From the NCBI GenBank assembly GCA_964016885.1, contig OZ024752.1:9362001-9426000 (forward strand): 64,000 nt of DNA. Reading direction: 5' to 3'. The translations under genes and the position numbers were made by a program. Position 1 is the first letter of the stretch; each line of letters opens with the position of its first letter. Source of the stretch: Eledone cirrhosa. Taxonomy: Eukaryota. Positions 1,085 to 59,914 of this stretch are shown here, one piece after another. The notes under the pieces are model-generated. The model was not told where the DNA came from. It saw only the letters and a program-made list of their open reading frames with translations, and did not search any database.

Positions 1085-1169
1085 CTCTCACTGAGGAAAG
1101 CCTACGGATTATCTGTTACAAACACAATTTTCAGGGCGAAACAGATTAAATCTCAAATCTGTCTGAGAG
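1085..1169 (+). ncRNA. Candidate type I hammerhead ribozyme (duplicate near 12918-13002)
   Basis: CTCTCA-CTGAGGA-aaGCCT...GGGC-GAAA-CAGATT/AATCTG-TC-TGAGAG: 6-bp stem I, 7-bp stem III, GUC site at 1161-1163. Stem II is short and has two extra As. Confidence 0.6.
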
Positions 1170-1319
1170 TTGAAATAGTTATTGAGACGGTCTGTATATA
1201 TATTCTATATTTTCCGTTAGCTTCAGGTTAAATTTATCAAACCAATGTGGTATTTCAACCCACGTAATTTTAGACACACAATTTACTGTGTTTATTTCTT
1301 TCTACATATATTATTGTAT

Positions 1320-1509
1320 AATTGTTCATACTTTTGGCACAACGCCAGCAATTACTCAGTGTATTACTGGTACTTTATTTTTTCGATCCCATCAGGATGA
1401 AAGGCAACGTTAACCTCGGCGGGATTTGAACTCAGATTGGAAAGGGCCGTAACTCTATGCGTCACAACATGGCGTCCGACCCTCTACTGATACTGCCAAT
1501 CCACCGCCC
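1320..1509 (-). mobile_element. tRNA-derived SINE, family S1 (duplicate 13153-13341)
   Basis: Minus strand begins GGCGGTGGATTGGCAG, has B-box GAGTTCAAATCC and central TTGCCTTTCATCC...ATAAAGTACCAG; many dispersed copies in the window. Confidence 0.85.
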
Positions 1510-1887
1510 GCATGTAACATATAAATATATACATATTTATATATATATATATACATATAGATATATATACATACATATATATGTATATATATATATATAC
1601 ATACATATATATATATACACATACATATATATACATACATACATATATTTATATATGTACACATACATATATATATATATATATACATACATATATATAT
1701 TTATATATACATACATATATATATTTATATACATATATATATAAACATAGATATAGATATTTATATACATATATATATATATACATACATATATATATAT
1801 GCATATATATATATATATATATATATATATATATATATATATATATATATATATATATATATATATATATATATATATATATACATA

Positions 1888-2091
1888 CATGGTGGATGCC
1901 AACTCGTTTTCGAGTACGGCCACTACTTTATATCCATGTAGGAGAACCCCTACCGATGCGCTGAACAAGTGTGACTTTTTAGTCCAGCCAACGACTTGAA
2001 AACTCTGGTACAAGCACTACACTTGTGACAATTATTGACACATGTGATGACAAGTGCAGAGATATCTCCAGGAAAACTCTGATATAACACC
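1888..2091 (-). mobile_element. Truncated copy of RTE-derived short element (family H) with a short inverted 5' piece
   Basis: Matches the 3' part of 5866-6462; 2071-2091 (ggaaaactctgatataacacc) is element sequence from the opposite strand. Confidence 0.8.
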
Positions 2092-2095
2092 AACA

Positions 2096-56395: not shown

Positions 56396-57147
56396 TATAT
56401 ATATATATATATATATATATATATATATATATATATATATATATATATACGTTTTATTGAGTACATGTGTGAGTGTGCGCCTGTGTATGCGCATATGTGA
56501 GCAAATGATCACACGTTTATATGTGTGTGTGTTCGTATTTCTATTTAGACGCACATACACTTATATGAGAATATATACGTCTACGTACTATTACGTATAA
56601 GCGTGTGTTTGAGTGCGTGTGTTTATGTTTTGGATATTTATTTATATTTTTTTCCCCGTTATTTGATTTCAGCCCCACTTTCATATTTCCTAAATTTTGT
56701 TTTTAAATCCATATTTAATAAACATTCCATATTATTCTTTTTGACGACTGAAGACAGATATAAATATCTGCTCTTCAAGAAACCACTGGTAAATGAATTA
56801 ATTATTTTATGTTGTTTATTACATAACTATATATATATATATATATATATATATATATACAGGAAAAGAGTCGGGACCCCGACGGCTGAGCTCCGGCCGT
56901 GTCGATAGCTAGATTCGAAATCATGTTATAAGTCTAAACTGGTTATTCATTCTTATATATATATATATATATATATATATATGAATAAATTTAGTCCTTC
57001 ATGAGGGATCTTCCAGCCTTCATTGGTATTTCATCGCTTTAAAGACCATATACCTCTGGCTGGTGCGAGCAACGGCTAAAGAAAGTCGTTGGACACGTAA
57101 ATAGGGGGAACGAGCGAGACAGTAAACAAACAAAGATGGTAATGCAA

Positions 57148-58028
57148 CGAGAGAGCGAGAGAGCGAGAGAGAGCGAGAGCGAGAGAGAGAGAGAGCGAGA
57201 GCGAGAGCGAGAGAGAGAGCGAGAGAGCGAGAGAGAGAGAGCGAGAGCGAGAGAGCGAGAGAGAGCGAGAGAGCGAGAGAGAGAGCGAGAGAGAGAGAGA
57301 GCGAGAGAGCGAGAGAGAGAGAGAGAGAGAGCGAGAGAGAGGGTGAGAGCGAGAGAGCGAGAGAGAGAGAGCGAGAGAGAGAGCGAGAGAGAGAGAGAGC
57401 GAGAGAGCGAGAGCGAGAGAGCGAGAGAGAGAGCGAGAGCGAGAGAGAGAGAGAGCGAGAGAGAGAGAGCGAGAGAGAGAGAGCGAGAGAGAGAGAGCGA
57501 GAGAGAGAGCGAGAGAGAGAGAGAGAGAGCGAGCGAGCGAGAGCGAGAGAGAGAGAGAGAGAGCGAGAGAGAGAGAGAGAGAGAGAGCGAGAGAGAGAGA
57601 GAGAGCGAGAGAGCGAAAGAGAGAGAGAGAGAGAGCGAGAGAGAGAGCGAGAGCGAGAGAGAGAGAGAGCGAGAGAGCGAGAGCGAGAGAGAGAGCGATA
57701 GAGAGAGAGAGAGAGAGCGAGCGAGAGAGAGCGAGAGAGAGAGAGAGAGCGAGAGAGAGAGAGAGCGAGAGAGCGAGAGAGAGAGAGAGAGAGAGATAGA
57801 TAGAGAGAGAGAGAGAGAGAGAGAGAGCGATAGAGAGCGAGAGAGCGAGCGAGAGAGCGAGAGAGCGAGAGAGCGAGAGAGAGCGAGAGAGCGAGCGAGA
57901 GAGAGAGAGAGCGAGAGAGCGAGAGAGCGAGCGAGAGAGCGAGAGAGAGCGAGCGAGAGAGCGAGAGAGCGAGCGAGAGAGCGAGAGAGAGAGCGAGAGA
58001 GCGAGCGAGAGAGAGAGCGAGAGAGAGA
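57148..58028. repeat. (GA)n/(GAGC) microsatellite
   Basis: Directly visible. Confidence 0.97.
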
Positions 58029-59548
58029 TGAGTAACAGTTTCCTGCCGAGCCGCTGAACGCTTCTAATTGACAAAGACTTTCTCTTTGAGGTAGGCTCCC
58101 CCTACTCCCAAAGGAATAAACACAAATTGAAAGATCAGACGAACGAGCGAGCTTGGAAATTACATAGTCGTAAACATTTCTTTAGATAACGTTGATGACA
58201 GCTTTTGTTGTATGGCCAGTCATTTGGTCTTGTCCAAACTATACCTGTCACGTAGCGATTGGTCAATTCTGGGGAAAAAGAAACCAGTGGAAATTCACTT
58301 TTATATTGCATACTAACCATTTTCAAAGAAATATATATGCCTATCACACCAAAGTTTGTAACACAGCATTGCATTACACAGTTACATGAACGCAGGGATG
58401 AATAGTATCAATCTTAAAGACCGAAATTAGTGGTTTTACAGAGGTTGGCTGAGGAGATGGGATTGTATATCTATGTCCAATGCACCCCATGTTTTGAATT
58501 AATATTCTAAAGAGTTAGTCATGTGAACTTTCTTTGAAATTGTTCCTATATATATATATATATATACACACACAGAGTCAGGACAACAGGGGTCCTGACT
58601 CTTTTCCTATTACCCACTCTATTACACTAAGTATCGAGTACTCTGGTGCGTCATGGTCCATCTGGTATCTTACCACAGCCTCTTTGTTATATATATATAT
58701 ATATATATATATATATATATATATATATATATATATATATATATATATATATATGCAAAGGGTAAACGGAAACAAAGCAAACACAGTACAGTTAGTTTAA
58801 CGCATGGGGCAACCACAGCTAGTAAGGTACTTAATACACAAGTAGAGCGTAAACATCACGTTTAATATAGAAATAGCGTCTAAAGAACTGTTTCTTGATA
58901 ATTTCTTTTGAATGAAACAGTTCTAGTCCTGTAAAAGACATATATATATATATATATATATATATATATATATATATATATAGGAACGAGTAGGACTCCG
59001 ACGGCTGAGCTCAAGCCGTTTCGACGGCTAATTCTGGATAAAAAAAAACGGCTTGAGCTCAGCCGTCGGGGTCCTACTCGTTCCTATTACCCACTCTACT
59101 ACCCTAAGTATTGAGTACTTTGGTGCGTTATGGTCCACCTGGTTCCTTACCACATTTCCTTCGTTATATATATATAGTAATAAACGAAAGATATACACTT
59201 TATATCATCTCTATTTAATACATTTCGAAGATGAAAAGTTTTACGTATAAAATAAAACAAAACATGTTCTCCTCAGACAAAATACATAGAAAATGTATAA
59301 ATGTTTCCTGATATGCTAGTAGACAAACTAACTGGATATATCGATGACTCCCAAGCATGCATATATATATGATTCAGTTTAGGAAAGTTGGTTGGTCAGA
59401 TAATCCACCGACTTTGGTCGTAAACAGCCGTAAAGTACTCACCGATTTGTATTCGTTAAAGAGTTATCAATAAGGTATCAACCGGAGTGTCGATATTATA
59501 AAGAAGAATGACGCTTTAACATGTACATCCTCTGTTTATTATATATTT

Positions 59549-59617
59549 CTGCTATACGTATTTCAAAGACGTCAAAGTGATTGCAAAATAACCCTTTGAC
59601 GTGTTCTCTTCAGACAG
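59549..59617 (-). ncRNA. Minimal hammerhead ribozyme, family E, within palindrome 59521-59740
   Basis: CTGT-CTGAAGA-gaacacgtcaaag/ctttgacgtcttt-GAAA-TACGTA-TA-GCAG; palindromic stem III ATACGTAT. Confidence 0.78.
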
Positions 59618-59849
59618 GTGGAAAGTTGTGGTATTTTTGTTTTTGATATAAAGAGAACACATCAAAGGGTTATCATGCAATCACTTTGACGTCTTCGAAA
59701 TACGTATAACATGATTATATAATAAGCAGAGGATGTACATTTAAAACCGCCTCTCTTTATATATATATATATATCCGGGAGCTTCCAACAGTAATGGTTG
59801 CATTTTTTAAGGGTATGTCAATATTTATTTATAAAACTGCTCTATATTA

Positions 59850-59914
59850 TATTTTATCTGATGAAAGCACACCATAATTTAACTTGGTGTCCTTGAAATA
59901 TGTATAATGAAATA
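59850..59914 (+). ncRNA. Minimal hammerhead ribozyme, family B
   Basis: TATTTTAT-CTGATGA-aagcacacca/tggtgtcctt-GAAA-TATGTA-TA-ATGAAATA. Confidence 0.8.

What the first reader, a model, noticed from the sequence alone, without database searches (positions are those of the whole stretch)
1085..59914. About eight unrelated hammerhead-ribozyme-bearing mini-element families colonising (TA)n microsatellites
Seen: the non-coding islands between TA tracts differ in sequence but share one architecture, stem I-CUGANGA-stem II-GAAA-short stem III-UH-stem I'. Examples are at 1085, 9106, 9645/40715, 23440/27063/34575/35416/35581/59850, 32263, 37131, 54184 and 59549. Established: minimal type I hammerheads mark Penelope-like element pseudo-LTRs. 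Inference: these are non-autonomous, retrozyme-like PLE derivatives targeting microsatellites, at more than a dozen non-redundant motifs in 64 kb. The motif class is known, but these particular families may be undescribed.
Basis: partly seen in the sequence, partly recalled or inferred. Interest (0 to 1): 0.85.

Follow-up and report, generated by a model that had tools for sequence, protein, structure and literature searches.

The report
Hammerhead-bearing stubs of Penelope-like retrotransposons
The hammerhead ribozyme motifs between the TA repeats are real; most are the cut-short tail ends of full-length Penelope-like jumping genes found elsewhere in this (likely octopus) genome, three families are gene-less hitchhikers, and one very abundant family carries an altered ribozyme core that is predicted to cut poorly.

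Summary
The motifs are real: 15 strict and 18 relaxed type I hammerheads against 0.00 and 0.05 in shuffles. One general pattern matches 108,713 times genome-wide against 209 for its control.

The interpretation needs correcting. They are 5'-truncated 3' pseudo-LTRs of autonomous Penelope-like elements: five Hydra-clade-like, one Neptune/Nematis-type. Only two (1091, 54214), plus a missed one (41053), are ORF-less units in partial tandem.

Three more Hydra-like families were missed. One has a U3-A8 core. Another has A at core position 4, in at least 15,651 exact matches, beside a complete 712-residue ORF. Most families have two fixed 3' ends, and 62 of 65 inverted insertions pair one long with one short end.

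Minimal hammerheads in truncated Penelope-like elements and (TA)n-targeting Hydra elements are published, including one octopus family. Cleavage and expression are untested. Verdict: new members of a known kind.

The parts
1..457 (-). Piece of the family E Penelope-like ORF (RT end, Cys linker, start of GIY-YIG), joined to the tip of an inverted E pLTR; its 3' pLTR lies just left of the window
   Evidence: L160
945..1310 (+). Family A, ORF-less unit of about 440 nt; hammerhead core 1091 with 7-bp stem III and two extra bases before stem II; predicted cut after 1163; duplicate at 12924
8891..9215 (-). Family E pLTR stub (Neptune/Nematis-type parent); core has U4C here and is intact in the duplicate at 19961-20285
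9439..9838 (.). Family B inverted pair (cores 9530-, 9653+), short end left, long end right; Hydra-type parent; duplicate at 20547-20946
11960..12142 (.). Family K inverted pair cut inside the hammerhead core; Hydra-type parent; duplicate at 23106-23288
23342..23545 (+). C-group stub, core 23448, preceded by an inverted tail piece
26865..26957 (+). Family L stub cut inside the hammerhead
27001..27161 (+). C-related stub, core 27069
32120..32556 (.). Family D inverted pair (core 32312- intact; 32466+ with a stem I mismatch); Hydra-type parent
32753..32953 (.). Family J inverted pair cut inside the hammerhead; long copies have a U3-A8 core; Hydra-type parent
34533..34866 (-). C-group stub, core 34632, with an inverted tail piece
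35296..35766 (.). Family C palindromic insertion (cores 35473-, 35589+); Hydra-type parent with a 3' UTR of about 1.8 kb
36870..37346 (.). Family H inverted pair, core 37142+; Hydra-type parent
37369..37590 (.). Family L inverted pair cut inside the hammerhead; genomic copies have A at core position 4
40375..40908 (+). Family B stub with more 3' UTR, core 40723
40975..41222 (+). Family I stub, core 41053 (U.U at the base of stem II); ORF-less unit of about 1.33 kb
54062..54416 (+). Family F, about 1.15 copies of an ORF-less unit of about 305 nt; core 54214
56860..56920 (-). Family J stub
58570..58687 (+). Family J stub
58893..58936 (+). Family K stub
58985..59165 (.). Family J inverted pair (second subfamily)
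59370..59757 (.). Family G inverted pair, core 59613-; older, decayed Hydra-type parent
59774..59954 (+). C-group stub, core 59858
60561..60768 (.). Family J inverted pair

Best explanation
Most islands are 5'-truncated, hammerhead-containing 3' ends (pseudo-LTRs) of at least nine autonomous Penelope-like retrotransposon families, and three are ORF-less units likely mobilised by those elements. Shown: fixed 3' ends abutting (TA)n, variable 5' ends, inverted second arms, and longer copies that run into an RT plus GIY-YIG ORF. Inferred: the RT-endonuclease nicks a (TA)n tract and starts reverse transcription inside its RNA at one of two fixed sites 3' of the hammerhead. It usually stops after a few hundred bases, so the stub left behind holds the ribozyme. 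In inverted insertions the two DNA ends are primed at different sites, one long and one short. A, F and I keep hammerhead, tail and (A, I) the junction motif, and would be copied in trans from tandem or circular RNA. Hammerheads with a palindromic six-base stem III would cut as dimers, probably slowly or with protein help; cutting may be dispensable for insertion.
For: ORF linkage: C, B, D, E, G, H, J, K, L (L400 has inverted arm, pLTR, an unbroken 712-aa ORF and a pLTR). Hydra motifs: CxCx5C in 7 of 7 Hydra-type families tested and in J; RWR/RWI and DKT in B, C, K, L. Two 3' end classes in most families; 62 of 65 classifiable inverted pairs are long+short against 50% expected, p about 1e-15. 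Samples taken as the first 30 genome matches: own 3' part lies upstream at one modal offset in A (16 of 30 at 400-460), F (14 of 30 at 270-320) and I (11 of 30 at 1240-1400); same-strand Penelope-like ORF upstream in 0, 2 (weak, other families) and 0 of 30. Stem I differs in sequence between families yet pairs in each; U3 in 100 of 100 and A8 in 99 of 100 listed J matches. Setting core position 4 to A cuts the general pattern from 108,713 to 1,128 matches, control 680 (spacer ranges differ slightly). Literature: PMC8557442, PMC4209133, PMC11167929.
Against: No cleavage or expression data. Clade assignment rests on motifs, not a tree. Pfam support is weak: RVT_1 or GIY-YIG below cut-off in 3 of 11 Penelope-like pieces, none in 8. 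ORF absence in A, F, I rests on 30 to 60 loci each with 1.5-kb flanks; a rare long parent could be missed. 25 of 90 inverted pairs could not be classified, and many loci were picked by similarity. K shows 7 of 30 copies with a 340-390 offset, so it may also have a short derivative. Hydra elements are described as generally under 3 kb; L and K are about 3.3 and 3.7 kb.
Confidence: 0.88

Rival explanations
1. All islands are dedicated non-autonomous retrozyme-like families that spread as short RNA circles.
For: True in outline for A, F, I: circular permutation, no ORF, and a stem III in A long enough for a monomer. Joints from the end of the F unit back to its start occur in three public runs of one sample, kind unknown.
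Against: Nine families have graded 5' ends that run into an ORF (26, 40, 43, 45, 58, 89). G and H show no own tail upstream in 0 of 30 copies each.
Confidence: 0.07
2. The islands are MITE-like DNA transposons or foldbacks, since several are near-perfect palindromes in TA repeats.
For: 35296-35766 is a 471-bp, 97% palindrome; 36870-37249 is similar.
Against: The arms end at two different fixed points (62 of 65 long+short), the fold-back point varies, single arms are common, and the parents encode reverse transcriptase.
Confidence: 0.02
3. The motifs are catalytically dead relics kept as a structural or protein-binding element, or merely carried along.
For: Family L amplified to at least 15,651 exact matches with A4; only 239 matches of a similar pattern have another base there. 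Single changes in the CUGA turn gave low activity in a mutational scan (PMC9901934, passage). Hammerhead cutting was not needed for insertion in vitro (PMC11167929). 8 of 9 frog retrozyme dimers did not cut (bioRxiv 10.64898/2026.07.22.740005).
Against: Most families keep a canonical core with family-specific paired stems, and J keeps the compensated U3-A8 pair (93, 107). That suggests selection on the master elements.
Confidence: 0.3

Closest known systems
Hydra clade of endonuclease-positive Penelope-like elements (Craig et al. 2021, PMC8557442), including Hydra-1_Obim from Octopus bimaculoides
   Same: Single RT plus C-terminal GIY-YIG ORF, RW(K/R), DKT, CxCx5C linker, CxxC and CxH motifs, hammerhead near the 3' end (including the U.U stem II base type in their File S2), (TA)n targets, partial tandems, inverted 5' arms, one-sided tail.
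   Different: At least eight distinct families in one genome against one octopus family listed; their hammerheads differ by eye from the Hydra-1_Obim entry; long 3' UTRs; tails mostly 70-100 nt against 30-40 described; U3-A8 and A4 cores; more than 100,000 motif matches.
Minimal hammerheads of metazoan pseudo-LTRs (Cervera and de la Pena 2014, PMC4209133)
   Same: Type I, palindromic short stem III, mostly single motifs from truncated elements, opposite-strand pairs 100-700 bp apart, many families per genome, U3-A8 variant.
   Different: Counts reported there are about 2,000-9,000 per genome. Most families here lack the G10.1-C11.1 pair. No A4 core in the parts read.
Non-LTR retrozymes (PMC7229834; bioRxiv 10.64898/2026.07.22.740005) and non-autonomous Chlamys elements
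   Same: A and F: 300-450 nt ORF-less head-to-tail units with a type I hammerhead, tied to pseudo-LTRs.
   Different: Mostly dispersed partial tandems with the Penelope-type double 3' end and inverted arms, not long arrays; I is 1.33 kb; circular RNA untested.
Poseidon element of Anolis, in vitro mechanism (Frangieh et al. 2024, PMC11167929)
   Same: Two internal reverse transcription start sites that define the tail; both strands cut and extended; hammerhead not needed for insertion.
   Different: Different clade. The long+short pairing rule in inverted insertions is counted here from genomic copies.

Membership tests
Hydra-clade PLE (families B,C,D,G,H,J,K,L) | Single ORF, RT followed by C-terminal GIY-YIG | tested here: met
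   Unbroken 712-aa ORF in L400; RT-to-endonuclease ORFs in L394, L395, L162, L061. G and H: only the C-terminal part seen.
Hydra-clade PLE (families B,C,D,G,H,J,K,L) | CxCX5C linker; CxxC and CxH in the endonuclease | tested here: met
   Linker in 7 of 7 and in J; CxxC or CxH in each, not both in every copy.
Hydra-clade PLE (families B,C,D,G,H,J,K,L) | RWK-type and DKT motifs | tested here: met
   RWR/RWI and DKT in B, C, K, L; one C copy has DKA. N-termini of D, G, H, J not recovered.
Hydra-clade PLE (families B,C,D,G,H,J,K,L) | Insertion into (TA)n | tested here: met
   Long 3' end followed by a dinucleotide tract in 21 of 22 B, 28 of 32 C, 7 of 8 H, 21 of 23 J, 24 of 33 L; D 16 of 41 and G 2 of 8 by the strict rule, mostly because the tract starts a few bases later.
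Hydra-clade PLE (families B,C,D,G,H,J,K,L) | Canonical hammerhead near the 3' end | tested here: inconclusive
   Met in B, C, D, G, H, K; U3-A8 in J; A4 in L.
Hydra-clade PLE (families B,C,D,G,H,J,K,L) | Placement in the Hydra clade on an RT tree; absence of the CCHH motif by alignment | not tested
   Reference proteins were only read in the supplement; no tree was built.
Neptune/Nematis-type PLE (family E) | CX2-5CxxC linker before a C-terminal GIY-YIG | tested here: met
   C-x4-C-x2-C then YIGET in L159 and L160; no BLAST match to the Hydra-type RTs. Neptune versus Nematis not resolved.
Non-LTR retrozyme (families A,F,I) | No protein-coding capacity; type I hammerhead in each unit | tested here: met
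   A has two extra bases before stem II.
Non-LTR retrozyme (families A,F,I) | Tandem of at least two complete units | tested here: inconclusive
   Same-strand pairs one unit apart among the first 100 listed matches: 5 for A, 6 for I, none for F. Most copies are partial tandems.
Non-LTR retrozyme (families A,F,I) | Self-cleavage and circular RNA | not testable with these tools
   No RNA run listed.
Minimal type I hammerhead | Core boxes, stems I-III, UH cleavage site, above chance | tested here: met
Minimal type I hammerhead | G10.1-C11.1 pair | tested here: not met
   G-C in D and, with bulges, in A, E and J; A-U, G-U or U.U in the others.
Minimal type I hammerhead | Cleavage in vitro | not testable with these tools
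   Needs a bench assay.

The most novel reading that the evidence does not exclude
Family L is a natural knockout: a recently very successful Hydra-type element whose hammerhead keeps all three stems but has A in place of the conserved U4. It would show in vivo that Penelope-type hammerheads need not cut, or else be an undescribed active core variant. With the long+short rule (62 of 65) and a motif shared just past the long end by autonomous and ORF-less families, it points to a dimeric RT-endonuclease that primes the two ends of one break at two different RNA sites and recognises a fold spanning the long site.
Probability: 0.4. Interest if true: 0.6.

Novelty: new member of a known kind. Interest (0 to 1): 0.4.

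Why it matters
It names a large, probably mis-annotated part of this genome: over 100,000 hammerhead-type matches, about one per 28 kb, from a radiation of Hydra-like elements known from one octopus family. The open question of what hammerheads do in Penelope-like elements gains ready test cases (A4 family, U3-A8 family, monomer-type versus dimer-type stems). Young families with unbroken ORFs and sharply mapped 3' ends suit an in vitro test of microsatellite targeting and twin priming.

Tried and rejected
Rfam scan: no hammerhead among the 150 rows listed of 516. Pfam model PF26215 is not in the searchable library, though many database homologs carry it. Pfam barely recognises these ORFs. Expression: no RNA holder listed; the three runs laid are of unknown kind and one sample, so they say nothing on expression. 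An ORF next to family A in L133/L157 first looked like its parent but belongs to family J. An ORF upstream of D in L111 belongs to another family. A fixed 5' end for D was an artefact of my query. The raw 'own part upstream' count is noisy (15 of 30 even for autonomous L, at scattered offsets), so only modal offsets were used; the longest shared extensions for A probably come from overlapping loci. Folding six tail-junction regions gave a stem across the long end in L, I, A and F but not the same one in C and K: a lead only. Single-sequence folding gave the hammerhead shape for A and E but not for F or I. Lunse et al. 2017 on hammerhead variants in these elements is not held, so an A4 core may be described there. 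A genome-wide count for family E is left open. Look-ups of earlier findings for this genome and for the full word set were empty.
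Full report
OBSERVATION. I read the whole window and scanned both strands for type I hammerheads. A strict descriptor found 15 motifs against none in 100 local dinucleotide shuffles; a relaxed one found 18 against a mean of 0.05. The copy at 9106 has U4C and its duplicate at 20215 is intact. Window 494-12142 is repeated at 12343-23288 across a run of 200 N, probably an assembly duplication, which leaves 15 non-redundant motifs in about 13 insertions. 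A general pattern for the palindromic stem III type matches 108,713 times in the 3.0-Gb genome against 209 for the reversed control. The window has 15 such matches against about 2.3 expected from the genome mean. The only named hit I noted for one ORF is a bivalve protein.

WHAT THE ISLANDS ARE. I took genomic copies of each family and read upstream. Family C (35522-35766) has a fixed 3' end before (TA)n, graded 5' ends and often an inverted arm; a second step upstream reached an RT, linker and GIY-YIG ORF. The same held for B, D, G and H. For G and H only the C-terminal part was seen. E is the terminal repeat of a different element with a C-x4-C-x2-C linker; a piece of its ORF occupies window 1-457 on the minus strand. 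The motifs of eight families match the description of the Hydra clade (PMC8557442 section 11): CxCx5C, RW(R/I), DKT, CxxC, CxH, (TA)n targets. Six RT segments are 40-55% identical, so these are separate families. The paper's supplement lists one octopus family, whose hammerhead differs by eye from all of these. No tree was built and Pfam support is weak.

ORF-LESS FAMILIES. A, F and I differ: what lies upstream of the unit is its own 3' end. In similarity-picked sets this held for 20 of 30 A and 26 of 30 F copies, against 0 of 30 for G and for H. In sets taken as the first 30 genome matches, modal offsets give units of about 440, 305 and 1,330 nt, with no own ORF upstream. Exact-match counts are small: 166, 233 and 242, lower bounds. 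A and I share a short motif just past the long 3' end with autonomous C and L, which suggests they use a Hydra-type enzyme; this is inference.

TWO ENDS AND INVERSIONS. Most families show two 3' end classes, mostly 70-100 nt apart, about 35 in F and 60 in E; A, E and G are less clear, with few copies. Public contigs of one sample show the same two ends for F. Of 90 inverted pairs, 65 could be classified: 62 long+short, 2 long+long, 1 short+short. The palindrome at 35296-35766 is one of the exceptions. In vitro work on a lizard element showed two internal start sites that define the tail, cutting and extension of both strands, and no need for hammerhead cutting (PMC11167929). I therefore infer that each arm is primed at a different site.

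RIBOZYME CORES. Stem I differs between families and pairs in each. J has U3 in 100 of 100 and A8 in 99 of 100 listed matches, 614 in all; this compensated variant is published (PMC4209133, PMC3088659). L has A4 in 100 of 100 listed of 15,651 exact matches; a similar pattern with any other base there matches 239 times, spread over C, G and T, so A4 is the state of the master element. In the palindromic families an A at that position is rare (1,128 matches, control 680). Single changes in this turn gave low activity in a mutational scan (PMC9901934). Two searches gave no paper on a natural A4 core, but the most relevant paper is not held.

COMPARISON AND VERDICT. Solitary and opposite-strand minimal hammerheads as remains of truncated Penelope-like elements were described in 2014; Hydra elements with (TA)n targets, inverted arms and tails in 2021; pseudo-LTR-derived retrozymes in 2020 and 2026. 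A search for hammerhead, Penelope and octopus gave no study of these families. A 2026 octopus repeat annotation lists 31 recently active Penelope-like families and has no occurrence of hammerhead, ribozyme or Hydra in its main text; its supplements were not read. So the kind is known and the families appear undescribed. The scale, the A4 family and the counted long+short rule are the parts a specialist might find new. Cleavage and expression remain untested.

PAPERS SEEN. PMC8557442: abstract, passages, section 11, supplement part 2 and search hits. PMC4209133: parts 1-2 of 4. PMC11167929: parts 1-2 of 4. bioRxiv 10.64898/2026.07.22.740005: parts 1-3 of 5 (main text; supplements closed). PMC7229834, PMC3088659, PMC6765202, PMC9901934, PMC13282606: passages only. 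Lunse et al. 2017: reference line only.

Noticed in passing
window 494-12142 and 12343-23288: 11.6-kb duplication across a 200-N gap at about 95-100% identity; the second copy looks error-rich near 13.7-15 kb. Probably an uncollapsed haplotype or contig overlap.
   Followed up: partly
window 6749-8601 (duplicate 17878-19724): 5'-truncated LINE with an open RT frame (RVT_1, E 5.6e-32), inserted in a TA-rich tract; the duplicate has frameshifts.
   Followed up: partly
window 38371-39274: Mariner-like element with terminal inverted repeats of about 115 bp and a truncated transposase (HTH_32, HTH_48).
   Followed up: partly
window 1317-1509, 39652-39842, 50323-50502, 52984-53210, 60974-61164 and others: A SINE-like repeat of about 190 bp (tRNA-like head by eye) that often inserts at one AT-rich point inside families A and I.
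   Followed up: no
window 1884-2043, 5868-6463, 30685-31284, 55558-55938: A repeat of about 600 bp, with a shared 3' part repeated in tandem, also lying in TA tracts; no hammerhead found in it.
   Followed up: no
window 59170-59340 (-) and 10180-10800 (-): Two more islands with a first core box (59276, 10671) and degenerate stems; probably older families.
   Followed up: no
family K, genome-wide: Strand asymmetry of exact matches (4,992 forward, 2,725 reverse) and 7 of 30 copies with a 340-390 offset suggest a tandem array or short derivative somewhere.
   Followed up: no
tails of the Hydra-type families: A short GAGYRC-like motif recurs about 40-55 nt before the long 3' end; in four of six junctions folded it pairs with sequence past the long end.
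   Followed up: partly
G000 C1 first 5 Mb: Further abundant hammerhead families absent from this window, many as inverted pairs 1-4 kb apart.
   Followed up: no
window 42660-44720, 45070-47500, 52306-52731, 57140-58030: Large simple satellites (five-base, three-base and GA types) and an 84-bp minisatellite.
   Followed up: no
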